A DNA stretch of 64,000 bases, from contig CAZNUV010000004.1 in the NCBI GenBank assembly GCA_964576755.1, positions 740 through 64,739 on the forward strand, in the 5' to 3' direction. A program made the translations under genes and the position numbers. The DNA is from Candidatus Woesearchaeota archaeon. GTDB lineage: Archaea > Nanobdellota > Nanobdellia > Pacearchaeales > GW2011-AR1. The notes beneath the pieces are model-generated. The model ran no database searches and was not told the DNA's origin. It saw nothing but the letters and a program-made list of their open reading frames with translations. Positions 31,760-50,112 of this stretch are shown here, in pieces; the first letter of the stretch is position 1; each line of letters begins with the position of its first letter.

Positions 31760-31760
31760 G

Positions 31761-33374: not shown

Positions 33375-33380
33375 AATACC

Positions 33381-34182: not shown

Positions 34183-34381
34183 TATCTCTTAAGAGTTCAT
34201 TTAATTCCTTCAGCTTAGAGATGATCTCCTCCCCAATATCTTCTGCAATTTTTTCTTTCATAAAAAAACTATTCAAAGAGTATTTATAAAAAATCAGAGA
34301 AAAAATAGCTATTTTTTAAACTATCTTTTAGCCCTTAATTTTTCTCCGAGTTAATTTATAATAAACTAATCAACAACAATC

Positions 34382-34845: not shown

Positions 34846-34850
34846 GTAAA

Positions 34851-36055: not shown

Positions 36056-36056
36056 A

Positions 36057-39000
36057 ATGTATGAGATTCCTCAACAATTAGAGTATAAGGAAAAAATAGT
36101 CTTTGGATTAACATTTCCACAATTAGCTTATGCTCTTGTATTTTTCCCTTTTGTTTTCTCATTTTTGTTTAAGATTAATGCAGATATTTATGTGAGAGTT
36201 TTTCTAGCTTCAATTCCGGCATTACTAGCTTCTGGATTTATGTTTTTTGATTTAAGTGGAAAGATAAAAAGAGGATATATTTGGTTTAAACTTCGAGAAA
36301 TAAGAACTGAGAAACAAAAAAAATTAGACCTAGAAAAAAGGCAAGGAGAACTAGAAAAAAGAAGGGAAGATAAATTAGAGAATAAACAAAAACCCAAGGG
36401 GGAGAAGCCTGAAAAGAAAATTGAAAAAGAAAAGCCCGAAAGGAATGATGTTAAGAATTTTTTTAAAATAGAAAAAATAGAAAAAAATATTATTCATTAT
36501 GACAACAAAAAAATTGCTGTTCTGAGAGTTGACTCATTAAACTTTGGAATAAAGCCCTTGAAGGAGCAGGAGACAATTATGTTATCTTTCCAGAAATTCT
36601 TAAATTCAATTGATTTTCCAATTCAAATTTTAATGACTACAGAAACATTAGACTTAGAGGATTATCTTGGATGTCTTGCTAATAAGATAATTGAAGAAAG
36701 GAATCGGGAGATTTTTGATTCATATAAATCCCATATGAAAAATTTAATTGAGAAGAATAGTGCGATGAATAGGAATTTTTATATTGTTATTCCAGAAGTT
36801 AGTGATCTTGAAATTCAAATGAGATTATGTGAAGAAAGACTTCATAGCTTAAATCTTAAGACTTATCGACTAAAGAAATCAGAATTAGAGAAGATGTTTT
36901 CTAAAATTTTTGGATCAAAAAAGATGTTACCCGAATCTATAAAAAATTCTCCAGATTTTGTTGAGGTCGATGGCAAATTCCACAAAATAATTTATGCTCA
37001 TGGATACCCAAGGTCAGTTGAAAAAGGCTTTTTGGACAGATTAGTTAGTTGCTCAGGGAACTTTGATTTTTCCCTACATATAACTCCCCGTCCAATAGAA
37101 GAAACTTTAATTTTATTAAATAGAGAGTTACAAAAGCAAAGGGCGGATATTTATTCAGCAAAGATAAAGAATCAGTTTAATCCTAGTCTTGAAATAAAAT
37201 ATAAGGACACTAAAGCAGTTCTTACAAACTTACAGAAGGGAAACGAGAAACTTTTCAATATTAGCTTTTATATTAATTGTAGGGCAGATAACTTAAAGGA
37301 ACTTAAGCTTCTAGCTAGGAAAATTGAGTCCGAACTTAATTCCTTGCTTATTATTCCAAGACAGCCAAACTTTAGGATGATTCAAGGATTCAAATCCTGC
37401 TTGCCATTAGCTAAGGATTTTTTAAGGGCGACTAGAAATATTACAACTTCGGCACTGTCGGCATTTTTCCCATTTACATCTTCCTTCTTTAAGTTTGATG
37501 AAACTGGTGTGTGGTTTGGACTAAATAAAAATAATATCCCTATAATTCGAGATATTTTCAAATTATCTAACTCTAATGGGATGTGTTTGGCTAGTTCCGG
37601 GGCGGGGAAAAGTTATATGGCAAAACTTTTCATAACAAGACATTTGCTTAATGGGACAAAAGTTATTGTGATTGATCCTCAAGGCGAATATAAAAACTTA
37701 GTTGAAAAATTTAAGGGTCAAAGAATTAATCTTTCTAGAACTTCCAATACTATGATTAATCCCTTGGATTTAATGGGGCACGATTACGCTGAGAAAAGAC
37801 TTTCTCTGATGGATTTAATGCCTGTTATGTTAGGGCAATTAACCGAGCCTCAGAAGTCATTTATTGATCAGGCTTTGACCGAAGCTTATGAGAGAAAAGA
37901 GATTTATATGAATGATAAGAAGAGTTGGGCTAACGAACCGCCGATTTTAGGCGACGTGTTAAATGTTCTACAGACAATGGAGGAAACGGCTATTAATCTC
38001 GAGAAAACTACCTTACGAAGCCTAATAAACCGACTACGGCTATATGTCGATGGGGTTTTCTCTTTTTTGAATAGGCATACTAATATAGATTTTAAGAATA
38101 ATTTTGTTTGCTTTGATATTGGTAATATGCCAAGACAGGTTAAGCCGACAATTATGTTTTTGGTACTTGATTATGTTTACATGAAGATGAAAAAGGATAT
38201 CAATAGAAAACTTCTAGTTATTGATGAGGCTTGGTCTTTGCTGTCTAGAGCAGAAGAGGCATCCTATATTTTTGAGATTGTGAAGACTTGTCGTAAATTC
38301 AATATGGGACTTTTCTTAATTAATCAAGAAGTTGAAGGTATGCTTAACTCTGAGGCGGGGCGTTCAGCCCTTGCCAATTCTTCTTATACAATCTTACTTA
38401 GACAAAAACCTGCAGTAATTGATGGCATTCAGAAAGTTTTTCATTTGAGTAATGTGGAGAGAATTGCATTGCTAACTGCGGGAGTGGGTGAAGGTATACT
38501 CTTAATGGAAGATGAACATTCTGAATTGAAAATAGTTGCCTCAAAAGAAGAACATAAACAGATCACAACTAATGCGGATGAGCTTCTTGAGGCAGAACCT
38601 GAAGAAGAAGTCAAGGGCAAAAAGGTCAATGTCAAAGTTGATGAAAATGAAAGAGTTCATTTATCTAAGGACTTATCTGAAGGCGACAAAACTTATTTGA
38701 GTAGAAAAAGATTTGGAGAAGTTAAGTATAAAGGAATCGATGGAAAGTTTCACAAATATTTTGTTAAGAAATACAAGAATGAATCACCACAGCATATGAT
38801 TTGGGTTTATGAAATTTCCAATTATTTAAAGAAGTTCACAAATAAGATTGAAACTCCTAGGACTGCTAAGGCAGATATTATTTTTGAGGTTAAGGGTAAA
38901 AAATATGGGATTGAAGTGGAGACTGGGAAATTAATTAAGAAGGATAAATCTAAAATTGAAAATAAAGTTAAGTATCTTAATTCAGATTTTGATAAAAATT

Positions 39001-39110
39001 GGTTTTTCTTTGTGACTAATCTTCATCTAAAGAAAAAATATCAAAAGTTTGGTAGTGCATTTGACCATAGGGGAATAAAAAGAAAAGTTACTAATTTATT
39101 CAAAAAGTAG
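36057..39110 (+). CDS. VirB3/PrgI-like membrane domain fused to a VirB4/TrbE-family ATPase, with an extra C-terminal domain
   Basis: N-terminus ..EYKEKIVFGLTFPQLAY.. plus two TM segments (PrgI/VirB3-like). Walker A ASSGAGKSY, Walker B LLVIDEAW. About 185-aa tail with ..ADIIFEV..YGIEVETGK... Track start TTG 36036; ATG 36057 preferred. Confidence 0.8.
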   Translation: MYEIPQQLEYKEKIVFGLTFPQLAYALVFFPFVFSFLFKINADIYVRVFLASIPALLASGFMFFDLSGKIKRGYIWFKLREIRTEKQKKLDLEKRQGELEKRREDKLENKQKPKGEKPEKKIEKEKPERNDVKNFFKIEKIEKNIIHYDNKKIAVLRVDSLNFGIKPLKEQETIMLSFQKFLNSIDFPIQILMTTETLDLEDYLGCLANKIIEERNREIFDSYKSHMKNLIEKNSAMNRNFYIVIPEVSDLEIQMRLCEERLHSLNLKTYRLKKSELEKMFSKIFGSKKMLPESIKNSPDFVEVDGKFHKIIYAHGYPRSVEKGFLDRLVSCSGNFDFSLHITPRPIEETLILLNRELQKQRADIYSAKIKNQFNPSLEIKYKDTKAVLTNLQKGNEKLFNISFYINCRADNLKELKLLARKIESELNSLLIIPRQPNFRMIQGFKSCLPLAKDFLRATRNITTSALSAFFPFTSSFFKFDETGVWFGLNKNNIPIIRDIFKLSNSNGMCLASSGAGKSYMAKLFITRHLLNGTKVIVIDPQGEYKNLVEKFKGQRINLSRTSNTMINPLDLMGHDYAEKRLSLMDLMPVMLGQLTEPQKSFIDQALTEAYERKEIYMNDKKSWANEPPILGDVLNVLQTMEETAINLEKTTLRSLINRLRLYVDGVFSFLNRHTNIDFKNNFVCFDIGNMPRQVKPTIMFLVLDYVYMKMKKDINRKLLVIDEAWSLLSRAEEASYIFEIVKTCRKFNMGLFLINQEVEGMLNSEAGRSALANSSYTILLRQKPAVIDGIQKVFHLSNVERIALLTAGVGEGILLMEDEHSELKIVASKEEHKQITTNADELLEAEPEEEVKGKKVNVKVDENERVHLSKDLSEGDKTYLSRKRFGEVKYKGIDGKFHKYFVKKYKNESPQHMIWVYEISNYLKKFTNKIETPRTAKADIIFEVKGKKYGIEVETGKLIKKDKSKIENKVKYLNSDFDKNWFFFVTNLHLKKKYQKFGSAFDHRGIKRKVTNLFKK

Positions 39111-39339
39111 CTATTTTTGATACTGGCTTTTTGGGATGTAAAATTAAGGTGTTCGACGGTAGAATTTGGGTAAATTTCGGTTTTGATACCCCCCGAATAT
39201 AAGTAGGTTGATACTATATTCTATTGGGAGGATTATTATTTAAGGCGGTTAAAGGTTTATGTGAGGGTGCTAACTAAGGTACTATAAACGGCCCAAAGAT
39301 TTAAAAAGAAAGGAGTTTTTGAAGTTTTAAGGAGGTTAA

Positions 39340-40338
39340 ATGACTAAAGAAAAATTTACGGTTGTAGAATTATTTGCAGGAGCAGGGGGTCTTGCTATCG
39401 GGCTGGAAAAAGCGGGATTAAAAAATGTGTTCTTAAATGAAATAGATAAGGATTGCGTTAATACTTTGAAAAAAAATAGGCCTAAATGGAATATAGTTCA
39501 TGAAGATGTGAGAAAATTAGATTTTAAAGGAATAAAAGCAGATGTTGTAACAGGAGGATTTCCATGTCAAGCGTTTAGTTATGCTGGAAAAAGATTAGGA
39601 TTTGAAGATACTAGGGGGACATTATTCTTTGAATTTGCTAGAGCTATAAAAGAAATACAACCTAAAATATTTATTGGAGAAAATGTAGCTGGATTAGTTT
39701 CTCATGACAAAGGTCAAACATTGAAAACTATGATTAGAATTTTGGAAGAAGACTTAGATCATTATGATATTCAGTATAAAGTATTAAACGCAACAGATTA
39801 TTCTGTTCCTCAAAAGAGAAAGAGGATATTAATTGTTGGTACAAAAAAAGGATTTAAATTTGAATATCCAAAAAAACATGAGAAAGTAGTTGTTCTGAGA
39901 GAAGCTTTGAAAGATGTTCCTAAATCTGTAGGTACACAATATTCAGAAAAAAGAAAAAAGGTTTTAGATTTAGTACCTCCCGGAGGTTGTTGGATAAATC
40001 TTCCAGAAGACATTAAAAAAGAGTTTATGGGGGTTAGTTTCCATAGTGGAGGTGGAAAAAGGGGGATGGCTAGAAGAATCTCTTGGGATGAGCCTTGTTT
40101 AACTTTAACAACTTCCCCTTCACAAAAACAAACTGAACGGTGTCATCCTAAAGAAACTAGGCCTTTTACAGTAAGAGAATATGCCAGAATTCAGACATTT
40201 CCTGATGATTGGGAATTTACTGGGAGCATTTCTTCTCAATATAAACAGATTGGTAATGCGGTGCCTGTAAAATTAGCAGAAGAAGTAGGTAAAGAAATAA
40301 TCAAGACTTTAAAATCATTTAATGAAATGCATAATTAA
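39340..40338 (+). CDS. DNA (cytosine-5) methyltransferase
   Basis: ELFAGAGGL (motif I), GGFPCQAFS (motif IV), ENV (motif VI), QIGNAVP (motif X). TAAGGAGGT precedes the ATG. Confidence 0.92.
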   Translation: MTKEKFTVVELFAGAGGLAIGLEKAGLKNVFLNEIDKDCVNTLKKNRPKWNIVHEDVRKLDFKGIKADVVTGGFPCQAFSYAGKRLGFEDTRGTLFFEFARAIKEIQPKIFIGENVAGLVSHDKGQTLKTMIRILEEDLDHYDIQYKVLNATDYSVPQKRKRILIVGTKKGFKFEYPKKHEKVVVLREALKDVPKSVGTQYSEKRKKVLDLVPPGGCWINLPEDIKKEFMGVSFHSGGGKRGMARRISWDEPCLTLTTSPSQKQTERCHPKETRPFTVREYARIQTFPDDWEFTGSISSQYKQIGNAVPVKLAEEVGKEIIKTLKSFNEMHN

Positions 40339-41020
40339 AGAATTCTAAAAGTTTTGTCATTTCTATTTCATTTATAGAAAATTCAGATTTTCTTAGATCC
40401 TTTATTGCTAAAGCAAGAGCTTTCCAAGTTTTTTCTAGAGCTTTAGGATCTCCAGTAACTAATTCATATACTTTACTTCCCCAAACCTTTCTTATTCTTT
40501 CATCACTTTTTCCGCCCTTTTTCCAAATAATATCTCCAGAATCTCCGTTTTTACTAACTAAAAATGCCCAATAAGCCTTAACTTTGGGATTATTTCTTAC
40601 AGCCATTTCTAATTTATCTCGACATTTATCAGTAGAATCTGAATTCATAGTATTAAATTTATTTTTTAATTCAATAAAAATGCTTTTATCTGATTTCATG
40701 AGATCTACTTTTGAATCATCTCCAACACCTAAATCTACCCACCCATTTACTTTGCCCAACAACTTTTGATGGAATTCCCCTATTCGATTATTGATAGTTT
40801 TGTCATTTTGTCTTATTCTTTCTGAGGAGATCCATTCATCAGTTTGTAATTCTCCGTTTATTATATCAAAAATTAATTTAAAAGGATCAATAGTATTTTT
40901 CTGCAATTTTTTCATATCTATTTCTTCTGAATCTGTAGGATATGCTTCACAAACCCATTTAACACACTTTAAAAAATCTTCATCAGACACAAAGTCCACA
41001 TATTTATTTTTGTTAGCCAT
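40319..41020 (-). CDS. Type II restriction endonuclease candidate (Eco47II/Sau96I-like by recollection)
   Basis: Convergent with the m5C MTase, with a 20-nt overlap. ..KVDLMKSDKSIFIELKNKFNTMNS.. looks like a D..E-x-K core. The family name is from memory of similar sequences and was not searched. Confidence 0.55.
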   Translation of the reverse strand: MANKNKYVDFVSDEDFLKCVKWVCEAYPTDSEEIDMKKLQKNTIDPFKLIFDIINGELQTDEWISSERIRQNDKTINNRIGEFHQKLLGKVNGWVDLGVGDDSKVDLMKSDKSIFIELKNKFNTMNSDSTDKCRDKLEMAVRNNPKVKAYWAFLVSKNGDSGDIIWKKGGKSDERIRKVWGSKVYELVTGDPKALEKTWKALALAIKDLRKSEFSINEIEMTKLLEFFNYAFH

Positions 41021-41284
41021 GGGTATAATAAACTTCTATGCTTTTTAGACTTTACTGAGAGCAAATTCCCAAAAACCTAATTGTCCCTTAGCTTTAATAG
41101 GTTTAATTCGCTTAATATTACTTAAAAGAAACCTATAAGTTCCAAATTCTTCTGTTGCTAGGTGTAGATTTTTATCTTTCCTTTCTTCTTATAATTCCAA
41201 TAGTTTTGGTTTCATTAAGAATCTTATTGCCTTTATCTAAAAAGAAAAAAAAGATCCGGGTATTAAATAGGATTTAATTAATAA

Positions 41285-41677
41285 TTATTTTAATTTTTTC
41301 CTCAAATCATCTAAATCTTCATAAACAATAATCTTATCTGCACAAGCCTCTAAAAAGTTGGCTTCTGTGCCTTTTTGATGGATAATTATAATTTTCTTCT
41401 TTAATGCTTTTGCATATCCTACCTCAAAATAAACTCCATTTGCTTTTTCAGAAGCCTCAACAAGAAGAGCATCACATTTTTCTATTGTCTTGTACGCTTT
41501 TTTTACAACCTCTTTGATTGGCATTTTAATCTTACCCCAATCTTGTGTATCTCTAAAAAATATAAATGTTTTATAGCCTAAAGTTTCTTCCACAACATTA
41601 CTTAATTCTTCAAGCTTTTGTTTTAACAAAACAGGATCAGAATCCTTAAATTTATAAGCTATGTATATTTTTTTCAT
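41285..41677 (-). CDS. Nucleoside 2-deoxyribosyltransferase-like (NDT/Rcl fold) protein
   Basis: 130 aa. MKKIYIAYKF.. Rossmann-like start and ..GVYFEVGYAKALKKKIIII.., which matches the catalytic Glu / G-x-A / GK-P-h block of the family. Confidence 0.6.
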   Translation of the reverse strand: MKKIYIAYKFKDSDPVLLKQKLEELSNVVEETLGYKTFIFFRDTQDWGKIKMPIKEVVKKAYKTIEKCDALLVEASEKANGVYFEVGYAKALKKKIIIIHQKGTEANFLEACADKIIVYEDLDDLRKKLK

Positions 41678-41678
41678 T

Positions 41679-43043
41679 TTAAGCTACTTTTATTTTTCTC
41701 CTACTTCCACTAGGATAATATAGATTATAAGCTTTTCTTAGCATTTCATTTAATTGTTTTGGACTAGCCTCACAAAAAGACAAATCATTACTTATATGAT
41801 ATTTATCAAAATTCTGATTGGGAATATCTAAGGGGACTTGATCTTGCAAATGATTATATGCTTGAAGCTGTTTATCTCCATATTTTTTTCTTAAGGAATT
41901 ATACATCTTAGTTCCTGGATAAGCCTTAACTAAAACAAAACAAGCAGTATCAGTATTAAGCTCTCTTGCTAAGTTTAGTGTTTGATTCATTTCACTTAAT
42001 GTTTCAGTTGGAAATCCAAACATATAATATGCCTTTGTTCTTATCCCAACTTCCTGACAATATTGAACAGCTTTTCTTGCCTGTTCAGGAGTTGTTCCTT
42101 TTTTAATTGAATCTAAAATTCTTTGGCTTCCTGATTCAATTCCAAAAACCAATTGATAACAACCTGCTTGATTAATTTTCTGTAAAAATTCTTTTCCAAA
42201 TCTTGCAGTAATATCTGTTCTAGCTAATGCTCTCCACTTAATCCCTAAATCTCTTTTCTGCAATTCTTCAGCTAAGTGCAAGACCCTATCTTGATTATAA
42301 ATAAAATCATTATCTAAGAAATGGACAGAATTAATGCCATATTCCTGTTTTAACATTTCCATTTCATTTACAATATTTTCTATACTTCTAGTCCTAATTT
42401 TTCTGCCAGAGGTTAGTGGAGCAGAACAAAAACTACAGATATAAGGACATCCCCTTGAACCCATAATAACAGATTTTAAATTTCCATTTTCTTGATAAGG
42501 ATCTTTTACAAAAAAATATCTATTAATAAAAGGTAAAGAATCTAAATCTTCAATTTTCTCTCTTTCAGGATTATGTATAATTTTATTTCCAGAAAAGTAT
42601 GAAATTCCTTTAACCCCTAGAGGGTTAAAATTATTATTAAGAAGTTCTGTTAAAGTTAATTCCCCTTCGCCTCGGACCAAGATATCAGTCTCAGGAATTA
42701 ATTTTAAAGATTGCTCAGGATTAATTGTTGCATGAGTTCCGCCAGTAATAATTTTAGTTTTGGGACTTTTCTGCTTAATCTCTTGAACAATTTGTTTGCT
42801 TAAATTAATGGTGGGAGTTATAAGATTTATTCCAACCAAATCAGGGTTTTCAGATAATGCACTATCGACAGATTGTTCTAAGGATAATCCTTTTGCTTCA
42901 GAATCAATAAGTCTAACATTATGTCCTAAATTTTGGGCAGTTGTAGCTAAGTAACCTAACCCAATTGGGGGTGTGGTGTAGTATTCTTTCTTTGCTTTCT
43001 TTCCGTAATCTTGTAATGGTGAATTAATAAAAATTATGTCCAT
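41679..43043 (-). CDS. B12-binding-domain radical SAM enzyme (class B)
   Basis: N-terminal B12-binding-like Rossmann region (..PPIGLGYLAT..LVGINL..IITGGTHAT..) followed by GSRGCPYICSFCS (CxxxCxxC). Confidence 0.8.
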   Translation of the reverse strand: MDIIFINSPLQDYGKKAKKEYYTTPPIGLGYLATTAQNLGHNVRLIDSEAKGLSLEQSVDSALSENPDLVGINLITPTINLSKQIVQEIKQKSPKTKIITGGTHATINPEQSLKLIPETDILVRGEGELTLTELLNNNFNPLGVKGISYFSGNKIIHNPEREKIEDLDSLPFINRYFFVKDPYQENGNLKSVIMGSRGCPYICSFCSAPLTSGRKIRTRSIENIVNEMEMLKQEYGINSVHFLDNDFIYNQDRVLHLAEELQKRDLGIKWRALARTDITARFGKEFLQKINQAGCYQLVFGIESGSQRILDSIKKGTTPEQARKAVQYCQEVGIRTKAYYMFGFPTETLSEMNQTLNLARELNTDTACFVLVKAYPGTKMYNSLRKKYGDKQLQAYNHLQDQVPLDIPNQNFDKYHISNDLSFCEASPKQLNEMLRKAYNLYYPSGSRRKIKVA

Positions 43044-43059
43044 AATAACTCCAGTTACC

Positions 43060-44163
43060 TCAATTCATCTCCTTTAAATTAATAACAATACTATCAACAG
43101 TCCGCTTAGGTTTTCTATTGCCGATTATTAATCCTTGATTTTTTAGATAATTAAAATAAGTAGAAATTGTACTAAGATTAATCCCTGTTTTTTTAGAAAT
43201 ATCTAAACTGCTATTTGTTCCATTACATAATTTTAGAATTTCTAATTTAATATTGTTAAGGGGCTTAATCTGTCTTTCAAATTCTTTTTTATTTGATATA
43301 AATAAACTTCTTGTTCTTTCTTTTGAATTTTGCTTTTGAATTATCTTCTGGATCTTAGAAAAATAATCATAAAGTCCTTCACTTACCTGCCCAATAAATT
43401 TCTTTTTTGTTTTACTTAGTTTTAATGATCTTAAAACAGGACTAAAAACTTCGATTAAATCGCTAATCTCCTTATCTGAGATTTTCTTACCCGCATAATG
43501 GGACTTAACTATGTCCCTGATTTTCTCTTTAGACATTTCAATAGATGGAATCTCTTCCTTATCTGAGATTATAACTGGAACTTTTCTAACAAAGATTGGT
43601 TTAGGTGATTCATATTTAAGATAAGTTGTAGAAAGATAAGAAATTATTTCTTTCTGAAATATTCTAAATCTTTCAGAAGTTAGATAATAATTCGGAGCTG
43701 TTGGACATAATTCTGGAAATAACTCTGGCAAATTCATTGCAATAAGATAATCAGAGATAATGTAATTTATCTTAGACAGGCTAATCTGATTAAAAGGGAT
43801 ATATTCGATTTCAAAACCTTTTTTCAAATTTTCAATTTTAAATCTAGATAAAATTCTCTGTAATGTTGAAGAAAATTCTGAATTTTTTAATAGCCGGTCC
43901 ATTGCATCAGACAAATATAGGATCTTATAGTTCATATTAAGCGAGGTCATTAATTTTTCAAGAACCGCCACATTTTCCTGTAATTTCTGAATCTTGTTTT
44001 TTGTATAATCTAAACCTTTCCCAAAAACTGGATGTTCAAAAACAAAATTATCCCAAACACAAAGATAAATCTTTTTTGGGTTTTGTTTTTTCAAATAATA
44101 AATATGATTTATGTTAGTATATGAATTTGTAACAGGGCTAATATTTGTATAAATTATCTTCAT
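43060..44163 (-). CDS. Unknown N-terminal domain fused to a C-terminal winged-helix HTH
   Basis: C-terminus ..ILKLCNGTNSSLDISKKTGINLSTISTYFNYLKNQGLI.. is ArsR/MarR-like. The N-terminal 280 aa are unassigned and include ..PSIEMSKEK... Confidence 0.5.
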   Translation of the reverse strand: MKIIYTNISPVTNSYTNINHIYYLKKQNPKKIYLCVWDNFVFEHPVFGKGLDYTKNKIQKLQENVAVLEKLMTSLNMNYKILYLSDAMDRLLKNSEFSSTLQRILSRFKIENLKKGFEIEYIPFNQISLSKINYIISDYLIAMNLPELFPELCPTAPNYYLTSERFRIFQKEIISYLSTTYLKYESPKPIFVRKVPVIISDKEEIPSIEMSKEKIRDIVKSHYAGKKISDKEISDLIEVFSPVLRSLKLSKTKKKFIGQVSEGLYDYFSKIQKIIQKQNSKERTRSLFISNKKEFERQIKPLNNIKLEILKLCNGTNSSLDISKKTGINLSTISTYFNYLKNQGLIIGNRKPKRTVDSIVINLKEMN

Positions 44164-44804
44164 AAAACTCCTATGACTTCTTTAAGAGATTTAACTAAAA
44201 TTCCTTTTATTCCAACATTTTCTGCCCCAATAACTTCATAGTCATCATGAGAAACAAAGATACTCTTTTCTGCAGTGATGTTTGCTCTTCTTAATGCTTC
44301 CCGATAAATTTTGGGATGTGGTTTTCTATGTCCAACTTGATAAGAGATAATAATGGGATCAAACATGCTAAGCATTTTCTCTTGGTTTAGTTCTGTAATT
44401 AAAGAATCATGGGGGAGGTTGGAAATTATTCCTAGATTGTATTCTTCAGATAATTTGTTTAAAATTCTCTTAGAATGAGGAAACGGAGTACTATTGTGAT
44501 CATTAAATTTATAGATATCTTCTAAGTGTTGAATATCTGCTTTAATCCCTAAATTTGAAACCATTAAGCCCATTATTTGATTCATTGTCCACTCAGAATT
44601 ATCCTGATTTCTAACCTCTAAATAGGTTTCAATTGCCTTATTGTGTGCGGTTTCTAGGGCTTGTGTGCTTACTTTTCCATTGTTTAATAAGTTAATATAA
44701 GTTAATGCTAATTTGTGGGCTCTTTGAAGGGTTTCCCTATTAAAATCGTAATTGAATATCAGTCCGCCATAATCTAGGAATAAATTCCTTTTTTCTTTAG
44801 TCAT
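44160..44804 (-). CDS. HAD-superfamily (subfamily IA-like) hydrolase
   Basis: Motif I LFLDYGGLIF (D-x-G rather than D-x-D), motif II IISNL, motif III GHRKPHPKIY, motif IV VSHDDYEVIGAENVG. Confidence 0.7.
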   Translation of the reverse strand: MTKEKRNLFLDYGGLIFNYDFNRETLQRAHKLALTYINLLNNGKVSTQALETAHNKAIETYLEVRNQDNSEWTMNQIMGLMVSNLGIKADIQHLEDIYKFNDHNSTPFPHSKRILNKLSEEYNLGIISNLPHDSLITELNQEKMLSMFDPIIISYQVGHRKPHPKIYREALRRANITAEKSIFVSHDDYEVIGAENVGIKGILVKSLKEVIGVL

Positions 44805-44972
44805 TTTCTGAAATTATCAAGAACTCTTTCTCCCTTTTGGGGCTAGAAATTTAAGAAAATCAGAGTTCTTAAACTTTATTGTTTTTTGATAAATACGTGA
44901 ACCTAACTCTTATATAATTGTGAAGTTATATATTCTTAGCTCTAAGGGAAAAAGTGGTTTTAGTAAAGTACC

Positions 44973-45251
44973 ATGAAACAAACACCTATAAAAAATAGTC
45001 CTCTTCTTCCAAGAAGAATAATCAATGTAAAAGGAAAAGTCCATTATAGTGAGAGTAATCAGGCTTGGAACACTATTAAACTAAAAACAGAATTTCTTAA
45101 TGAATTTCAACAATTAAAAGAAAAAAGATCCAAGTTTTCTTATGAAATGTTATTTGGAAGAACTGAAGAAGAAATGGTTGAAGCTATAAAGAAAATTATA
45201 AAAGATAAAAATTTGATGCCGATTTTGATGTTTTTGTATAAGGATGGGTAA
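44973..45251 (+). CDS. Hypothetical protein
   Basis: 92-aa ORF just upstream of the next gene. Confidence 0.4.
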   Translation: MKQTPIKNSPLLPRRIINVKGKVHYSESNQAWNTIKLKTEFLNEFQQLKEKRSKFSYEMLFGRTEEEMVEAIKKIIKDKNLMPILMFLYKDG

Positions 45252-45281
45252 AATTTTAAACCTTAAATCTTATTGAGAGGT

Positions 45282-46001
45282 ATGGAACAAGACAAAAAGT
45301 ATAAAAAAATAACATCCGATATAAACTTTTTAATGAAAAAGTGTTATTATCTTAAGGAAAAATTCTTGGGTTGTTATATGTCAACCAAAGAAATTTTGGA
45401 AAAACAAGCTAGGGAGGATGCTATTAATCAAATTTTAAAAACTTCTTCACTTAGATTTGATGGAACTCATGAGACTGTTTTTGAATCAGGGTTTACTTCT
45501 GAAATGAATAATTCTTGTTTTTTTGAATTTGATTCATTTATGTTAGAATGTAAAAGAAGTATAGACTATATTATCAAAGCAATTAGGTTTTGGTTGGGTT
45601 TTAAAGATATTATGAAAAAAGGAAAAGGAACAGAATCTTTTTTTAAAAGTTTAAATCCAGATTTTAAAGAAAATCGTAGAGAAGATTGTATTAAAATTAT
45701 AAAAATTTATCCAGATTTTGCAAATTTTTTGTGGTATGAATGGGGACGATGGATAAAAAAATTACATAAATATCGGACAATAAGTGTTCATAATTACATC
45801 CCTAATCATGTTCATGGGAAAATCAAAGTTTTTTGGAATTCTGTAGCCCAAAAAGATTCTCCTAGTGAAGTTACTTTGGATGGAATTTTTTTGGATGGGG
45901 AAAATATTGAAGATTATGTGAAAAAAACCCTCTCAGATTTAGCCTCATTTGATGCATATGTCTATGGATTTTCTGGAAAAATAGATTCTCTCCAAACTTA
46001 G
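45282..46001 (+). CDS. Hypothetical protein with R-x4-H (HEPN-like) motif
   Basis: Track start TTG 45273; ATG 45282. Mostly helical by composition, with ..KLHKYRTISVHNY... Confidence 0.4.
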   Translation: MEQDKKYKKITSDINFLMKKCYYLKEKFLGCYMSTKEILEKQAREDAINQILKTSSLRFDGTHETVFESGFTSEMNNSCFFEFDSFMLECKRSIDYIIKAIRFWLGFKDIMKKGKGTESFFKSLNPDFKENRREDCIKIIKIYPDFANFLWYEWGRWIKKLHKYRTISVHNYIPNHVHGKIKVFWNSVAQKDSPSEVTLDGIFLDGENIEDYVKKTLSDLASFDAYVYGFSGKIDSLQT

Positions 46002-46007
46002 AAATTA

Positions 46008-46673
46008 TCACTTAGCAATTTCCACACATTCACAAGTCTTAGCCTTGCTATTGGAAGTACTACAACTTACAGTAGAGCCATCAACAACGTAATGACCATC
46101 TTGACATAACCAATCCACACCGATAGGATCGCAAACATCGTCACAATCAAAAGCACTTCCACCATTATAACACCAGTAATGTTCATCAGTATAATCTGAA
46201 TAAAGTTTAATACATCCGGTTAGTGTTAATACATCTGCAGTTAAAGAATCTCCTAAAGCAATATCTCCTTTAACTGTTAATACATCATCTATTACAGCGT
46301 CATCATCTACCTGTAGGTCGTCAGTATCAACTGTTCCAGTTATATCTGCTACAGCATTATCCTGTAATTTGAGCCATACAGAAGGACTTTGACTACCATC
46401 TAAGACCTGTAAGGCAAAAGTTGAATCATCATCTCCTTGTCCTTGTAGATATATTGTGGTCTCTGAATCTAAACTGTCCCTACCGACAGCCATTCTTCCT
46501 AGGATAATTGTATTTCCACTAGTTTCTAAATCGTTTAGATCAAGATCCCCCTCTTTCATAATTACGTTTCCTGCAAAAACAACAATTGAAAAGGTTATAA
46601 TAAAAATGATAGATAAGGTTAATAAATTAGTCTTTAGAAATTTTATAACTTTTATCCCTTTTTTCCCTTCCAT
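46008..46673 (-). CDS. Anchored/exported protein with acidic beta-rich middle and Cys-rich C-terminus
   Basis: N-terminal TM, D/T/V-rich repeats, C-terminal 8 Cys. Last gene of the surface-protein operon. Confidence 0.5.
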   Translation of the reverse strand: MEGKKGIKVIKFLKTNLLTLSIIFIITFSIVVFAGNVIMKEGDLDLNDLETSGNTIILGRMAVGRDSLDSETTIYLQGQGDDDSTFALQVLDGSQSPSVWLKLQDNAVADITGTVDTDDLQVDDDAVIDDVLTVKGDIALGDSLTADVLTLTGCIKLYSDYTDEHYWCYNGGSAFDCDDVCDPIGVDWLCQDGHYVVDGSTVSCSTSNSKAKTCECVEIAK

Positions 46674-46718
46674 TTTCTTATATTTTATATTTATCCAAAC
46701 TTATAAATTTTGTGTTTT

Positions 46719-49700
46719 TCATATGAAATACATATTTTCATATAAATATCCTGTAAAGCATATTTCTCCATCAAATCCAATATAAATCATATTTGTTCCC
46801 GTACTATTTTTAATAATAAAAGCATCTTGTGAAGGCTCACAAGTTGGATTATGTGCAGAACAATTTCCATTCTCTAAGCACATGTTTCCTTCTTCATCAA
46901 TATATGCAGTAGTATTGTCTGTTGAATTTGCAAAAATAAGTGAATTACTTGGAGCAGAACATGTTGGAGTGGAATTGCATGTGCCCCTTAATACAATGTT
47001 TCCTGAGTCCCCAAACCAAGAGACATTATCTCCTGAAGAATTTTTATGATAAAATCGGTAAATATCATCTGGATAAGGATTTACACTTATTAGGATGGAA
47101 GGAAAAGAGATGTTTATTCCACCATCTGTATCATTTACCTGAACTTCAATATAAGAATAACCATATTCATCAGGGGAAGGATTATTACATGTAAGATTAC
47201 CAGAATTTAGATAACAATCAATTAAAGAAGGGTTGCTTTGATTATTGATCTGATAAATTAAATTATTATCTGAGTCTTCAATATCTGAAGAACAAAGGCC
47301 TAAATCTATCTGAACTCCAGAACCACTAGTATCTTCCCAGATATGGGCATCTAAGCAAGAAAATATTATTGGAAGATTATTTAATACAACTACAGTATCT
47401 ATGTCTGTTGTCCATCCACTAGATAGTCTACTGTCTGAAACATTACATCTAAAATCAAAATTACCTAGGTCGTCATCAGAATAATTGGTTGTATAATTAC
47501 ACTTCCAATAACCATTAATTGTATCATAAGTTATATTTTCACATTCAATATAACCATTATTCGTTGTATTTTGATACTCTATAAGGGCATCCAATGAACT
47601 ATTAATTGTTTCATCATCCTCAACAGTACATCTTATTTCAATATCTTCTCCCCTATAAAGAGATGAAGGGTATTGTGTCAAGTTAATTACTGTTGGTACA
47701 GTATTTGGGGTACTAATGTTTAGAGTCCAGTTTGAATTAGCCCAATCTGCTTGAGATTTATCATCATAAGCTAAACAATTCCAAATAAAAGAGATATCAT
47801 CTTGGAGATTATTTATTGTAAAGTTTGCAGAGTTAGAGGTTCCAGAGATCTCTTTTGTTTGATTAGCTTGCCAAGTCCCATTTATATTTGTGTAAAGGGT
47901 TATGTTGGATAGAGCCTCTTCATCAGTCACATTACAAATAAGAGTAATATTTTTGGTAATACTTATATTATTATCTAGTGGGCTGATCAATGTTACATTT
48001 GGAGGATTATTTGTAAGATTATAATAGATCTCTACAGCTGAAAGTTTTAATTTGCCCTTAGAATCTGAATGTAATGTTAAAGAAATATTACAATAACCTT
48101 CTCCATCTGGTGTGCAGTTAACTAAAGCATCATTTAATTCTTGTGCAAAATTATCTGTAGTTTCTTCTACTCTAAAATATCTAGTATAATTCCAAACATT
48201 AACATTATTGAGGTGCATAGAGACATTTGAAGTATAATTTCTATTATCAATTTCTATTGTTTTATTTTTAGTTGATTCATAATTCCCCCCAATATCTTGA
48301 CTATAATATCTTATGTAACTCGTTCCAAAAGTTGAAATATTAACCATTGAAGAATAATTTGTTATTGGCGAACATATATTAAGAGTATCAATACAATATT
48401 TTGGATAACCTGATTTGCATCCAGATCCGTTACCATCTTCACAAGATAAGGTAACTCCCACATTATTGTAAGTTAAATTGTTAAAAGAATAGTTTTCTTC
48501 TCCAGGAGGAGATGTTGCTGTTGCAGTAGTTGTAGGGGTTATAGAATCAATCTTGTCAATGTATTGTTGCGTTGATTCATAATAAGTATCTGTTCCAGAG
48601 TAAACTCCTCTCCATCTAAAATAGGTAGTACCTTCTGCGGAAATATTAATATACTCATTAAGTCCATAATTTTCAGAAGGGGTACAACTGGAACCAGTAC
48701 AATATTGAACATATGAACAATCATTTTGACAAGAAATATAGTGTCGAATATTTTCATCAGTCCACGTATTGGAGGTATATGATCCTCCCCCAGGAGGAGA
48801 TGTTGCTACATGGGTTGTTGTGGGTGTTGGAACAGTATAGTAAATTGAGAGATAATGGATATATGATCCTTCTGAAGTATCATAAAAGTCTGTATTACAT
48901 TCATCTCCCCAGTCTTCTTCTCCAAGAATTCCCAAGATAAATTCATCATATGTGGAATCATTTAATGCTACTTGAATTTCATCTTCTGCACCAGTTATAT
49001 GAATATTGTACCATTGATCGTCATCACCCTCACTATCCCAAATAAAAGAATTATACATTTCCCCATTATCTAACCACAACCATAAATCTTCCTCTTCCTC
49101 TTCATCCTCTGGAGAAAGATCTATATTATCCTCATAGGCATCATCTTCAGTAGAACCGTAGATATCAATATATTGATAACTGCCACAATCATCCATTACA
49201 ATATTTGTAGGATACATATAGAGATAGGTGGTTCCAATTGTAGCATCGTGAGGTATTAGAGAATCTTCGATATCAAAGGTTGCCATTCCCCTTGCCTTAT
49301 AATCAGTAGAGGGTCCAACATCGCTTCCAATTTCTACAAGTTCATCTTCATCCCAAGCATATGTCCCACTAAGTCTTCTAAGGGCAGTTCCATAACCTGC
49401 ACTATTTTCATCTCCTTCTATGGAGATGGAGGGATCAATATAACTTAAGTCGTCTCCAGATATTTCAATAGAATCTTCACTGATATTAACATTAAGTTCT
49501 TGATGTTTTACTGCTCTTTTGAAATCTATTCTCTGCTCATCACATATTAATGAATCTTTTCCAGGAATACATTTCACATTTTCTGTTATGATCTCGTAAC
49601 CTATTTTTTCAAATTGATTAGCCCCTCTTAATGTGTGTTCAAAATAATAACCCCCTCTTTTCTTAATGATGTTTGTTTTAAAATTATGATAAAGCTTACT

Positions 49701-50111: not shown

Positions 50112-50112
50112 C

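What the first reader, a model, noticed from the sequence alone, without database searches (positions are those of the whole stretch)
41285..44804. Four-gene operon of HAD hydrolase, wHTH protein, B12-radical SAM enzyme and nucleoside-deoxyribosyltransferase-like protein: candidate nucleoside/nucleotide-modifying system on a mobile element
The four minus-strand genes have overlapping or 1-16-nt junctions (44163/44160, 43060/43043, 41679/41677).
- The last two are a class-B (cobalamin-domain) radical SAM enzyme (GCPYICSFCS) and a 130-aa protein with the NDT/Rcl-type block ..YFEVGYAKALKKKIIII... That family cleaves or exchanges the base on 2'-deoxyribosyl compounds.
- The first is a HAD-IA hydrolase whose motif I is D-Y-G-G. 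It lacks the second Asp used by phosphatases.
- The operon sits between an R-M system and other accessory genes.

Established precedents for the chemistry exist. OxsB is a B12-radical SAM enzyme that works with a phosphohydrolase on deoxyadenosine phosphates to make oxetanocin. Prokaryotic viperins are radical SAM enzymes that make chain-terminating nucleotides. By analogy this could produce a modified (deoxy)nucleoside for antiviral defence, for DNA hypermodification, or as a metabolite exchanged with a host. I do not recognise it as any described cluster.
Basis: partly seen in the sequence, partly recalled or inferred. Interest (0 to 1): 0.72.

Follow-up and report, generated by a model that had tools for sequence, protein, structure and literature searches.

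The report
Mobile radical-SAM nucleotide module in DPANN archaea
A conserved, undescribed five-gene module carried on mobile islands of tiny symbiotic (DPANN) archaea combines a vitamin-B12 radical enzyme, nucleotide-cutting enzymes and a DNA-binding protein built on a tRNA-synthetase fold. It most likely makes or destroys an unusual nucleotide for conflict with viruses or rival elements, but no function has been shown.

Summary
The four overlapping minus-strand genes are real, and their order is conserved well beyond chance: HAD–X–rSAM–NDT recurs in 21 of 23 informative loci from Pace-/Woese-/Nanoarchaeota.

1. The "wHTH protein" is a full TyrRS/TrpRS-like fold with degenerate HIGH/KMSKS motifs, fused to a wHTH. 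It founds a new DPANN-only family.
2. A fifth gene belongs to the unit: a ~90-aa protein at 44973-45251, joined by a strongly conserved bidirectional promoter region.
3. A sister "type B" module exists: X-like ⇄ B12-rSAM–CYTH–small protein.

Enzymes recurrently embedded in the modules all act on nucleotides: a MilB/DNPH1-like N-glycosidase, a HAD hydrolase, a CYTH triphosphatase, a Tmk-like kinase and a DHH phosphoesterase.

The window copy lies in a ~27-kb element integrated at tRNA-Asp, which also carries an integrase, a VirB2 pilin, a VirB4-like ATPase and R-M genes. Other copies sit beside R-M systems, Shedu, GmrSD, HEPN-MNT pairs and the same integrase and VirB4 families.

The rSAM is not specifically OxsB-like. 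No PADLOC system or paper matches the module.

Best reading (~0.45): an element-borne, X-regulated nucleotide-modifying conflict system, with viperin/OxsAB-like logic. The function is untested.

The parts
44973..45251 (+). Small conserved protein (92 aa), transcribed divergently from the operon. It is the fifth component of the module and has no known family.
   Evidence: A homologue is adjacent to the module in nearly all type A loci, either divergent upstream or downstream on the same strand. It is also present in all type B loci with that flank sequenced: HMM E 1.9e-35 in L036, and 69.5% identity between the window and L043. At least 125 clusters exist, and extra copies occur away from modules. 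The AF2 monomer model is poor, pLDDT 60.6.
44805..44972 (.). Conserved bidirectional promoter/operator region between the small gene and the HAD gene.
   Evidence: An alignment of 11 loci shows 32 invariant columns, including an invariant TATATA box. The direct repeat CTTCACAA...GTTCACAA brackets that box. A second TTTAAAAA-type box follows, and a conserved AAGAGTTCT lies just upstream of the HAD start. The role as an operator for X is inferred.
44160..44804 (-). HAD-IA-type hydrolase (214 aa) with atypical motif I, D-Y-G-G.
   Evidence: PF13419, E 4.6e-20. There is full-length similarity to the YjjG noncanonical pyrimidine nucleotidase model, E 1.9e-16, but far below its cut-off. Motif I is D-[YF]-[GE]-x in all 26 homologues, and motifs II (S), III (K in RKP) and IV (SHD..E) are kept. 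The nearest solved structures are uncharacterised archaeal HADs and haloacid dehalogenases.
43060..44163 (-). Protein X (367 aa): a TyrRS/TrpRS-like (class Ic aaRS) fold at residues 1-~300, fused to a C-terminal winged HTH at ~300-355.
   Evidence: The AF2 model has pLDDT 90.8. All top 50 Foldseek PDB hits are TyrRS or TrpRS, with E down to 5e-7, probability 1.0, TM 0.44-0.54 and ~310 aligned columns. No sequence-level aaRS signal was found: no Pfam hit and hhalign probability 0.2 against MjTyrRS. The wHTH matches HTH_5 and HTH_45, and CasR/Csa3 models align mainly over the wHTH. The family is small and DPANN-only: 71 clusters and 132 representatives among 1.84e9 proteins.
41679..43043 (-). 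Class B (cobalamin-binding domain) radical SAM enzyme (454 aa).
   Evidence: PF02310 plus PF04055. C199/C203/C206 are invariant. The best NCBIfam hits are HpnJ (213 bits against a cut-off of 578) and BchE (192 against 481), so it is a member of no curated family. Profile against PDB: AprD4 144 bits (core only), QCMT/MgmA 9ccb 140 bits, OxsB 94 bits, TsrM 93 bits. PADLOC PDC-M51A gives only 81 bits.
41285..41677 (-). NDT/DNPH1/MilB-superfamily protein (130 aa), a putative nucleotide N-glycosidase.
   Evidence: PF05014 scores 30.0 bits against a cut-off of 28.8. The family profile against PDB returns almost only NDT, DNPH1/Rcl and MilB/BlsM chains. The best is the 4jen CMP N-glycosidase, E 8.7e-7, and E85 aligns with the conserved Glu in the G-x-x-x-E-x-G motif of MilB and DNPH1. 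E85 is invariant in the family, along with Y8, K9, R42, D43, D69 and K78.
39340..41020 (.). Context: adjacent type II R-M pair, Dcm 39340-40338(+) and Eco47II-family REase 40319-41020(-).
   Evidence: PF00145, E 1.1e-89; PF09553, E 1.5e-53.
29264..56136 (.). Context: an integrated element of about 26.8 kb carrying the module. In order it holds tRNA-Asp (attL), Tyr integrase 29425-30603, Dam MTase, a DndB-like gene, an N6_N4 MTase, VirB2/TrbC pilin 34504-34845, VirB4/TraC-like ATPase 36036-39110, the R-M pair, the module, large surface proteins, and a direct repeat at 56126-56136.
   Evidence: tRNA. Pfam assignments. The 11-mer GGTTGGGGCGT of the tRNA 3' end recurs at 56126, 61075 and 62403, with 0 expected by chance, and the similarity extends beyond it. 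Homologous integrases and VirB4-like ATPases lie near modules elsewhere.

Best explanation
This is a self-contained accessory module carried by integrative, T4SS-like elements of DPANN archaea, and it acts on a nucleotide.

Inferred mechanism:
1. The B12-binding radical SAM enzyme modifies a nucleotide, or a nucleotide-linked substrate, by C-methylation or rearrangement.
2. A phosphohydrolase processes the substrate or product, or removes the canonical competitor. This is HAD in type A and CYTH in type B, sometimes with a Tmk-like kinase or a DHH phosphoesterase.
3. In type A, the MilB/DNPH1-like N-glycosidase does likewise.
4. Protein X is a TyrRS/TrpRS-derived ligand-binding domain fused to a wHTH. 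It senses a small molecule (an amino acid, a nucleotide or an aminoacyl-adenylate-like ligand) and controls the conserved bidirectional promoter.
5. The ~90-aa protein is an obligate partner of unknown role.

The output is used in conflict: antiviral or anti-element defence, or competition. The logic resembles viperin or OxsB/OxsA.

Shown: gene content, folds and families, conservation of the two module types, and the mobile/defence-island context.

Inferred: the nucleotide substrate, the regulatory role of X, and the conflict function.
For: Gene order and the sister module:
- HAD-X-rSAM-NDT is conserved in 21 of 23 informative loci, with rSAM identity down to 33%.
- The type B module (X divergent from rSAM-CYTH-small) is present in the 11 loci L039-L049, nine of them non-redundant. 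The small gene is missing only from L044, where the contig ends inside CYTH. A further variant is L008.

Partners of the X/rSAM/small core come from nucleotide-acting enzyme families:
- the NDT/DNPH1/MilB-like protein, with its catalytic Glu kept;
- a HAD with a YjjG-like full-length match;
- CYTH;
- a thymidylate/deoxynucleoside-kinase-like protein plus a GreA/B-C (Rnk-like) protein in L040;
- DHH/DHHA1 plus a second NDT-like protein in L021.

Parallel with viperins: they show the same partner repertoire, namely linked NMP kinases and fusions to a triphosphatase/cyclase domain (bioRxiv 10.1101/2023.09.13.557418).

X as a regulator:
- The fold is TyrRS/TrpRS-like, but HIGH and KMSKS are degenerate.
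- X carries a wHTH.
- In type B it is transcribed divergently, like a classical regulator.
- Both module types have strongly conserved intergenic regions with repeated motifs next to TATA boxes.

Context:
- Among the 105 nearest flanking genes, the commonest families are ResIII, TraG P-loop, N6_Mtase, Eco57I and N6_N4_Mtase.
- Shedu, PDDEXK, GmrSD, HEPN-MNT and DGR genes are also adjacent.
- The window copy sits in a tRNA-Asp-integrated element.
- The same integrase and VirB4 families lie near other copies.

Distribution is patchy: 24 loci among 185,579 species genomes.
Against: - No biochemical or genetic datum exists, and the substrate is not identified.
- The closest full-length solved relative of the rSAM is a protein methylase, QCMT/MgmA. 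A RiPP model, ApyD, is among the top NCBIfam hits.
- The small protein is the best conserved part (69.5% identity across module types), which would fit a protein substrate rather than a nucleotide.
- The HAD lacks the Asp+2 general acid/base typical of phosphatases.
- X could be catalytic rather than a sensor, since many polar residues are invariant.
- R-M genes are common in DPANN genomes, and no genome-wide background for the flank enrichment was computed.
- No PADLOC system matches.
Confidence: 0.45

Rival explanations
1. Protein or peptide modification. The B12-rSAM C-methylates (or otherwise modifies) the conserved ~90-aa protein, in the manner of QCMT or a RiPP pathway. X acts as a recognition or ligase partner through its wHTH (as an RRE) and its aaRS-like domain. 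The HAD, CYTH and NDT-like proteins are accessory.
For: - QCMT/MgmA (9ccb) is the best full-length solved relative, at 140 bits (identity of 9CCB from PMC12931638 and PMC11796369).
- NCBIfam hits include RiPP rSAM models: ApyD 1e-50 and rSAM_ocin_1.
- The small gene is always linked to the rSAM and X in both module types.
- Its poor monomer model would fit a partner-dependent fold.
Against: - The small protein is highly conserved along its whole length, unlike RiPP cores.
- It also occurs away from modules and in more clusters than X.
- This reading does not explain why nucleotide N-glycosidase, CYTH, Tmk-like, DHH and HAD genes are the recurrent partners.
- All rSAM family scores are far below the curated cut-offs.
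Confidence: 0.15
2. DNA or nucleotide-pool hypermodification that marks the element's or host's DNA, either as anti-restriction or as a self-mark for adjacent R-M systems. The rSAM would modify a dNMP. The kinase would pass it towards dNTP. The HAD, NDT-like and CYTH enzymes would deplete the canonical nucleotide, as in phage hypermodification pathways.
For: - The module is tightly associated with R-M genes and with integrative, T4SS-like elements.
- A DNPH1/MilB-type glycosidase and a nucleotidase-like HAD could clear canonical dNMPs.
- A Tmk-like kinase is embedded in L040.
- A DndB-like gene lies in the same element.
Against: - No relative of X was found in 2.9 million viral contigs.
- No DNA polymerase, glycosyl- or amino-acyl-transferase, or DNA transglycosylase is linked to the module.
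- The kinase is present in only one locus.
- A dedicated ligand-sensing regulator is not expected for a constitutive mark.
Confidence: 0.15
3. Biosynthesis of an aminoacyl-nucleoside or nucleotide antimetabolite of the puromycin or microcin-C type. X would be a catalytically active TyrRS-like ligase joining an amino acid to a nucleoside that has been tailored by the rSAM and dephosphorylated by the HAD.
For: - The full-length TyrRS/TrpRS-like fold includes the C-terminal helical domain.
- Many polar residues in the Rossmann part are invariant.
- A Peptidase_S51 gene and a SAM methyltransferase are inserted in L013.
- There are precedents for enzyme-plus-wHTH bifunctional proteins such as BirA and NadR (established knowledge).
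Against: - HIGH and KMSKS lack their catalytic His and Lys.
- There is no profile similarity to aaRS.
- In type B, X is separated from the operon and transcribed divergently.
- No exporter or obvious immunity gene is conserved.
Confidence: 0.1
4. Ordinary housekeeping: nucleotide salvage or house-cleaning for a host-dependent archaeon, or a fortuitous gene cluster with no common function.
For: DPANN archaea depend on salvage (established knowledge). HAD and NDT-family enzymes are classical salvage or house-cleaning enzymes.
Against: - Distribution is patchy: 24 loci in 185,579 species genomes.
- One MAG carries two diverged copies.
- The module sits in integrated elements and among R-M and defence genes.
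- The operon structure is strict, with overlapping genes, and is conserved at 33-50% identity.
- A B12-rSAM and an aaRS-like regulator are not parts of any known salvage route.
Confidence: 0.05

Closest known systems
Prokaryotic viperins (pVips) with linked nucleotide kinases or triphosphatase domains
   Same: A radical SAM enzyme sits in defence islands, and its recurrent genomic partners are nucleotide-metabolising enzymes. For viperins these are NMP kinases and fusions to a triphosphatase/cyclase domain. Here they are CYTH, a Tmk-like kinase, HAD and NDT-like proteins.
   Different: The rSAM here is class B, with an N-terminal cobalamin domain, and is unrelated to the viperin clade; no pVip model hit was obtained in PADLOC. 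It always comes with an aaRS-fold/wHTH protein and a ~90-aa protein. The product is unknown.
OxsB/OxsA (oxetanocin A biosynthesis)
   Same: A B12-binding radical SAM enzyme is paired with a phosphohydrolase, which in OxsAB acts on deoxyadenosine phosphates. Both belong to the class I domain order, B12 domain then rSAM (PMC12931638).
   Different: OxsB (744 aa, with an extra N-terminal domain and a helix bundle) scores only 94 bits against the family profile, below QCMT and AprD4. The partner here is HAD or CYTH rather than an HD-domain protein. NDT-like, X and small proteins have no counterpart in OxsAB.
MilB / BlsM CMP(hydroxymethyl-CMP) N-glycosidases and DNPH1 (Rcl)
   Same: These are the best solved relatives of the 130-aa protein (4jen, E 8.7e-7; DNPH1 E 0.005). 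The G-x-x-x-E-x-G catalytic-Glu motif is shared.
   Different: The N-terminal substrate-binding motif is Y-x-A-Y-K-[FL], which differs from the Gly-rich motif I recall for NDT/DNPH1 enzymes; I did not align that region here. The remaining genes of the mildiomycin and blasticidin pathways (CGA synthase and others) are absent.
QCMT/MgmA (MCR glutamine C-methyltransferase, PDB 9CCB)
   Same: It is the closest solved class B rSAM across both the B12 and rSAM domains: 140 bits over residues 63-382.
   Different: The TIGR04014 model scores 129 bits against a cut-off of 360. The organisms are not methanogens and have no MCR.
Ligand-sensing enzyme-fold/wHTH regulators: BirA (class II aaRS-like fold plus wHTH), NadR, Csa3 (CARF plus wHTH)
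   Same: The architecture is a nucleotide- or adenylate-binding Rossmann-type or aaRS-like domain fused to a (w)HTH, and the gene is encoded next to the operon it would regulate. CasR and Csa3 models hit the wHTH of X.
   Different: The sensor domain is a class Ic (TyrRS/TrpRS) fold, for which I know no precedent as a transcription-factor domain. Neither DNA binding nor a ligand has been tested.

Membership tests
Class B (cobalamin-binding) radical SAM enzymes | N-terminal B12-binding Rossmann domain followed by a radical SAM core with a CxxxCxxC cluster motif | tested here: met
   PF02310, E 5.4e-24 (residues 21-134), and PF04055, E 3e-25 (residues 196-359). C199, C203 and C206 are invariant in 26 homologues.
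Class B (cobalamin-binding) radical SAM enzymes | Actual cobalamin binding and use | not testable with these tools
   This needs reconstitution and spectroscopy. AprD4, one of the best matches, is reported not to need cobalamin (my own knowledge).
OxsB/OxsA-type system | An OxsB-like rSAM (closest relative is OxsB; extra N-terminal domain) together with an HD-domain phosphohydrolase partner | tested here: not met
   OxsB scores 94 bits, against 140-144 bits for QCMT and AprD4. The protein is 454 aa with no extra N-terminal domain. The partners are HAD or CYTH, not HD.
Prokaryotic viperin (pVip) defence | An rSAM of the viperin clade | tested here: not met
   The PADLOC scan returned only PDC-M51A (81 bits) and no pVip model. 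The protein also has a B12 domain, which viperins lack.
HpnJ / BchE / other curated B12-rSAM equivalogs | A score above the NCBIfam curated cut-off | tested here: not met
   HpnJ 213 bits against 577.6. BchE 191.7 against 481. ApyD 172.8 against 750. The lipid 'ladder' model 154.8 against 360.
NDT / DNPH1 / MilB superfamily (PF05014) | A Pfam match above the gathering score and a conserved catalytic Glu in the G-x-x-x-E-x-G motif | tested here: met
   30.0 bits against 28.8. A profile of 19 homologues hits MilB-type 4jen (8.7e-7), NDTs and DNPH1. E85 is invariant in the family and aligns with the conserved Glu of the same motif in MilB and DNPH1.
NDT / DNPH1 / MilB superfamily (PF05014) | N-glycosidase or transferase activity on (deoxy)nucleotides or nucleosides | not testable with these tools
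   An enzyme assay is needed. The N-terminal motif differs (Y-x-A-Y-K).
HAD phosphatases | Motif I DxD (nucleophile plus Asp+2 general acid/base), together with motifs II-IV | tested here: not met
   Motif I is D-[YF]-[GE]-x in all 26 homologues, so Asp+2 is absent. Motifs II (S), III (K) and IV (D/E) are present. The HAD fold itself is met (PF13419, 4.6e-20).
Class I aminoacyl-tRNA synthetases (TyrRS/TrpRS, class Ic) | Overall fold: Rossmann catalytic domain plus C-terminal helical domain | tested here: met
   All top 50 Foldseek PDB hits are TyrRS or TrpRS, with probability 1.0, E down to 5e-7, TM 0.44-0.54 and ~310 aligned columns. The model has pLDDT 90.8.
Class I aminoacyl-tRNA synthetases (TyrRS/TrpRS, class Ic) | HIGH and KMSKS signature motifs, and sequence-profile membership (PF00579) | tested here: not met
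   The positions read S-P-x-T-x-x-Y-T-N-x-N-H and I-P-S-x-E-M-S, with no conserved Lys (the mapping is by secondary-structure position and is inferred). There is no Pfam aaRS hit, and hhalign against MjTyrRS gives probability 0.2.
Csa3/CasR (CARF plus wHTH) regulators | An N-terminal CARF domain | tested here: not met
   The Csa3, CARF3 and one CasR model align only with residues ~296-364. The best CasR hit (PDLC01434, 23 bits) extends back to residue 194. The N-terminal region folds as TyrRS-like instead.
Known PADLOC defence systems | All components match models of one described or candidate system | tested here: not met
   HAD: none. X: wHTH only. NDT-like: ThsB at E 3e-4. rSAM: PDC-M51A at 81 bits. 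The other components of PDC-M51 could not be inspected.
Integrative (conjugative-like) element | A tRNA-adjacent tyrosine integrase, direct att repeats, and transfer genes | tested here: met
   tRNA-Asp 29264-29335 and integrase 29425-30603. The tRNA 3'-end 11-mer is repeated at 56126, 61075 and 62403, with 0 expected. VirB2 pilin and a VirB4/TraC-like ATPase are present. Actual mobility was not tested.

The most novel reading that the evidence does not exclude
A cobalamin-dependent functional analogue of viperin. A tRNA-synthetase-derived sensor (X) reads an amino-acid, tRNA or nucleotide cue of infection or element transfer. It then switches on a B12-radical SAM enzyme that converts a cellular nucleotide into a C-methylated or rearranged antimetabolite or chain terminator. 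HAD/CYTH, NDT-like and kinase partners shape or detoxify the pool. The whole system is spread among DPANN archaea by conjugative-type integrative elements.
Probability: 0.2. Interest if true: 0.85.

Novelty: new variant of a known kind. Interest (0 to 1): 0.66.

Why it matters
- DPANN archaea are ultra-small, uncultured symbionts whose immunity and mobile elements are almost unexplored.
- A conserved, element-borne module built around a class B radical SAM enzyme would add a new chemistry to nucleotide-based conflict systems. So far these are known only from viperins and from nucleotide-depleting enzymes.
- It would give enzymologists a new B12-rSAM subfamily with a small set of candidate substrates.
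- The TyrRS/TrpRS-fold-plus-wHTH family is a previously unrecognised fate of an aminoacyl-tRNA synthetase paralogue. It is a candidate ligand-sensing transcription factor, a class I counterpart of BirA.
- The linked integrase, VirB2 and VirB4 element family is itself a lead on gene transfer in DPANN archaea.

Tried and rejected
- **OxsB-like assignment: rejected.** OxsB ranks third or fourth in both single-sequence and profile searches of PDB, and no HD-domain partner is present.
- **Membership in HpnJ, BchE, the lipid-ladder family, BzaD or the PhpK family: rejected.** All scores are far below the curated cut-offs.
- **X as a Csa3/CARF regulator: rejected.** The Csa3/CARF models match only the wHTH, and one weak CasR hit starts at residue 194. 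The N-terminal region has a TyrRS-like fold.
- **Sequence-level link of X to TyrRS: none found.** There is no Pfam hit, no PDB sequence hit, and hhalign against a verified MjTyrRS sequence gives probability 0.2. The relation is at fold level only.
- **Viral origin: not supported.** No relatives of X were found in IMG/VR, and PHROG hits are generic.
- **Structure of the 92-aa protein: uninformative.** The model has pLDDT 60.6, so no fold search was attempted. Pfam gives only weak DUF7354 hits.
- **att site search:** a 25-mer of the tRNA 3' end with up to 3 mismatches found nothing. The shorter 11-mer then found three more copies.
- **Short contigs:** look-ups of P0238 and P0200 gave contigs too short to show context.
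- **Literature:** five searches for any description of such a module returned nothing relevant.
- **Composition:** the module (GC 0.292) does not differ from the window (0.302).

Full report
**1. Observation**

The four minus-strand ORFs exist exactly as described:
- HAD, 44160-44804;
- X, 43060-44163, overlapping HAD by 4 nt;
- B12-rSAM, 41679-43043, after a 16-nt gap;
- the NDT-like gene, 41285-41677, after a 1-nt gap.

The quoted motifs are all present. Pfam confirms HAD_2 (4.6e-20), B12-binding (5.4e-24) plus Radical_SAM (3e-25), and Nuc_deoxyrib_tr (30.0 bits against a cut-off of 28.8). It also finds a wHTH at residues ~300-355 of X. The adjacent genes are a Dcm methylase and an Eco47II-family endonuclease. 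The window is a ~30% GC contig, and the module's GC (0.292) matches its surroundings. The closest named relatives come from Pacearchaeota and Nanoarchaeota MAGs.

**2. The gene set is a conserved unit, and it is larger than four genes**

I looked up contigs that encode close and distant homologues of the rSAM. I also scanned one genome per species with a profile of X. Together these gave 33 loci.

A BLAST census shows HAD-X-rSAM-NDT in the same order in 21 of the 23 loci that have enough sequence downstream of X. This holds even where the rSAM is only 33-36% identical and X 45-50% identical to the window proteins. One of the 21, L021, carries a different NDT-like gene. The two exceptions, L023 and L028, carry X alone.

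A fifth gene encodes a ~85-105-aa protein (window 44973-45251, + strand). It accompanies nearly every module. It lies either divergently upstream of HAD or directly downstream of the NDT-like gene.

The 168-bp region between it and HAD is strikingly conserved across 11 loci:
- 32 invariant columns, including an invariant TATATA box;
- a direct repeat CTTCACAA...GTTCACAA bracketing that box;
- a second TTTAAAAA-type box;
- a conserved AAGAGTTCT next to the HAD start.

I read this as a bidirectional archaeal promoter with operator sites. That reading is inference.

Extra genes are inserted in some operons:
- HExxH-containing small proteins in L006 and L010;
- a 183-185-aa protein in L001, L002 and L014;
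- a HEPN protein in L007;
- a SAM methyltransferase plus Peptidase_S51 in L013;
- a second B12-rSAM in L012;
- DHH/DHHA1 plus a different NDT-like protein in L021.

**3. What the proteins are**

*Protein X.* X is not merely a wHTH protein. An AF2 model built from 30 homologues has pLDDT 90.8. Its top 50 Foldseek hits in the PDB are exclusively tyrosyl- and tryptophanyl-tRNA synthetases, with E down to 5e-7, probability 1.0, TM 0.44-0.54 and ~310 aligned columns. That span covers the whole minimal archaeal TyrRS.

The relation is at fold level only:
- There is no Pfam aaRS hit.
- There is no PDB sequence hit.
- hhalign against a verified M. jannaschii TyrRS sequence gives probability 0.2.

At the positions where HIGH and KMSKS would sit, the family has S-P-x-T-x-x-Y-T-N-x-N-H and I-P-S-x-E-M-S. 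The catalytic Lys is absent. These positions were mapped from the secondary structure, so the mapping is inferred. X is therefore a diverged pseudo-synthetase-like domain fused to a wHTH.

The family is tiny and confined to DPANN archaea: 71 clusters and 132 representatives among 1.84 billion proteins. These fall into three tiers that share the same architecture.

*The rSAM.* It is a class B enzyme with invariant C199/C203/C206, but it belongs to no curated family. HpnJ scores 213 bits against a cut-off of 578, and BchE 192 against 481. A family profile against the PDB gives AprD4 at 144 bits (core only), QCMT/MgmA (9CCB) at 140 bits, OxsB at 94 bits and TsrM at 93 bits. 9CCB was identified from PMC12931638 and PMC11796369. 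So the enzyme is not specifically OxsB-like.

*The 130-aa protein.* It is a bona fide member of the NDT/DNPH1/MilB superfamily. A 19-sequence profile hits almost only such chains. The best is the 4jen CMP N-glycosidase at 8.7e-7, and E85 aligns with the conserved Glu of the shared G-x-x-x-E-x-G motif.

*The HAD.* It keeps the nucleophile Asp and motifs II-IV. It has D-[YF]-[GE]-x in place of DxD in all 26 homologues. It shows a full-length but sub-threshold match to the YjjG noncanonical pyrimidine nucleotidase model.

*The ~90-aa protein.* It has no family and gives a poor monomer model, pLDDT 60.6.

**4. A sister module**

A tier-3 X-like protein in L036 is transcribed divergently from an operon of B12-rSAM, CYTH and a homologue of the same small protein (HMM E 1.9e-35).

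A metagenome scan with close relatives of that X found the arrangement in L039-L049. That is 11 loci, nine of them non-redundant. The small gene is missing only from L044, where the contig ends inside CYTH. L008 is a further variant: rSAM, CYTH and a convergent X-like gene.

In L040, a thymidylate/deoxynucleoside-kinase-like protein and a GreA/B-C (Rnk-like) protein are inserted between CYTH and the small gene.

Between the window (type A) and L043 (type B), identities differ sharply by component:
- small protein, 69.5%;
- rSAM, 31%;
- X, alignable by BLASTP only over the wHTH.

The type B intergenic region is also conserved and carries GTTTAAC/GTTAAAC repeats.

The invariant core is therefore X, a B12-rSAM, the small protein and a phosphohydrolase. 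Two tier-3 X-like genes (L037, L038) have no rSAM nearby. One of them lies next to a faint Tmk-like gene.

**5. Context**

In the window, the module lies in an element integrated at tRNA-Asp. In order, the element carries:
- tRNA-Asp, 29264-29335;
- a tyrosine integrase;
- a Dam methylase;
- a DndB-like gene;
- an N6_N4 methylase;
- a VirB2/TrbC pilin;
- a VirB4/TraC-like ATPase;
- the Dcm/Eco47II pair;
- the module;
- three very large surface proteins.

The 3'-terminal 11-mer of the tRNA recurs as a direct repeat at 56126, 61075 and 62403, with 0 expected in shuffles, and the similarity extends into the flanks. This suggests a ~26.8-kb element followed by small tandem islets.

Homologues of the same integrase (57-64% identity) and VirB4-like ATPase (50-60% identity) lie within 8 kb of both type A and type B modules elsewhere.

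I scanned the 105 genes nearest to 21 type A modules, three on each side. The most frequent Pfam families were ResIII (6), TraG P-loop (5), N6_Mtase (4), Eco57I (4) and N6_N4_Mtase (4). Individual loci also show GmrSD, type I and type III R-M systems, a DGR, HEPN-MNT pairs and an integrase. Type B flanks include Shedu (twice), PD-(D/E)XK nucleases, an N6_N4 methylase with ResIII, a Macro domain and RHS toxins.

I did not compute a genome-wide background. The enrichment is therefore qualitative.

Distribution is patchy: 24 loci among 185,579 species genomes. One MAG carries two diverged copies. L033 and L029 in that MAG are probably one locus split over two contigs. No relative of X occurs in IMG/VR viral contigs.

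**6. Interpretation**

Every recurrent partner of the X/rSAM/small core comes from an enzyme family known to act on nucleotides or phosphoesters: an N-glycosidase, HAD, CYTH, a Tmk-like kinase and DHH. This is the same partner repertoire reported for viperins, which show linked NMP kinases and fusions to a triphosphatase/cyclase domain (bioRxiv 10.1101/2023.09.13.557418).

The best-supported model (confidence ~0.45) combines this with the mobile, R-M-rich context. It is an element-borne system in which:
- the B12-rSAM modifies a nucleotide;
- the phosphohydrolase, glycosidase and kinase process the product or the competing canonical nucleotide;
- X acts as a ligand-sensing regulator at the conserved promoter.

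The output would serve antiviral or inter-element conflict.

The steps that are shown are gene content, folds, conservation and context. The substrate, the regulatory role of X and the biological function are inferred.

Rival readings:
- Modification of the very highly conserved small protein, in the manner of QCMT or a RiPP pathway (0.15).
- DNA or nucleotide-pool hypermodification, as a self-mark or for anti-restriction (0.15).
- Biosynthesis of an aminoacyl-nucleoside antimetabolite with a catalytically active X (0.10).
- Housekeeping salvage or a fortuitous cluster (0.05).

**7. Comparison and novelty**

The module works most like viperin-type or OxsB/OxsA-type systems, in that an rSAM is paired with nucleotide-processing partners. 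It is a member of neither. Its rSAM has a B12 domain, belongs to no viperin model, ranks OxsB below QCMT and AprD4, and has no HD partner.

No PADLOC system matches, and five full-text literature searches found no description.

I rate it a new variant of a known kind: an rSAM-centred nucleotide conflict or biosynthetic module. It contains one new protein family, the TyrRS/TrpRS-fold-plus-wHTH protein.

Interest is 0.66. It is a well-delimited, conserved, mobile and undescribed system with a short list of testable substrates, but its function is not yet demonstrated.

Noticed in passing
window 29264-62413: The tRNA-Asp 3'-end 11-mer GGTTGGGGCGT (29326) recurs as a direct repeat at 56126, 61075 and 62403, plus a near copy at ~60470, with 0 expected by chance. 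The flank similarity extends beyond it (CGGTTGGGGCGTAC...TTTCATGG). This reads as attL plus several attR-like sites: one ~26.8-kb integrated element followed by small tandem islets. The islets carry TrmB plus NTase/HEPN pairs, a 159-aa protein that looks like a GNAT acetyltransferase (not scanned), and a HEPN-MNT pair.
   Followed up: partly
window 34504-39110; L001, L004, L015, L020, L048: A DPANN T4SS-like gene set recurs next to the modules in other MAGs at 50-60% identity: a TrbC/VirB2 pilin, two small membrane-protein genes and a ~1000-aa VirB4/TraC-like ATPase. The same tyrosine integrase family also recurs, at 57-64% identity, in L018, L029, L040 and L046/47. This is a family of integrative, possibly conjugative, archaeal elements.
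   Followed up: partly
window 30926-33995: A Dam-type methylase, a 537-aa DndB-like protein (PF14072, 3.6e-11) and a truncated-looking N6_N4 methylase (204 aa) lie just after the integrase. This may be an additional DNA-modification or defence cargo.
   Followed up: no
window 46719-55785: Three very large Cys-rich predicted surface proteins (1130, 839 and 807 aa) lie inside the integrated element. Their sequences are rich in N-x-S/T motifs by eye, and there are weak MopE and CARDB hits. Parts of the 1130-aa protein recur next to modules in L004 and L043. They may be adhesins for host-cell contact or mating.
   Followed up: no
L024 3746-4024 and 2660-3832: A second copy of the ~90-aa protein (77% identical to the window's) sits divergently next to a 390-aa gene that reads by eye as a double-HTH Lrp/AsnC- or TrmB-like regulator (not scanned), about 3 kb from the module. 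The small protein therefore also pairs with HTH regulators outside the module.
   Followed up: no
L010 and L012 (genome contigs titles): Loci 93% and 73% identical in X to the window come from MAGs labelled 'Candidatus Babeliales bacterium' and 'bacterium'. The contigs are probably DPANN contigs mis-binned into bacterial MAGs.
   Followed up: no
L007 14203-16843: A diversity-generating retroelement (bAvd, a reverse transcriptase and Laminin_G_3 target proteins) lies 4 kb downstream of a type A module, with an integrase upstream.
   Followed up: no
P0436 (150 aa): One metagenomic protein joins the N-terminal ~70 residues of the small-protein family to a RusA Holliday-junction resolvase domain (PF05866, 9.6e-8). 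It could be a fusion or a gene-calling artefact. If real, it hints at a link between the small protein and DNA.
   Followed up: no
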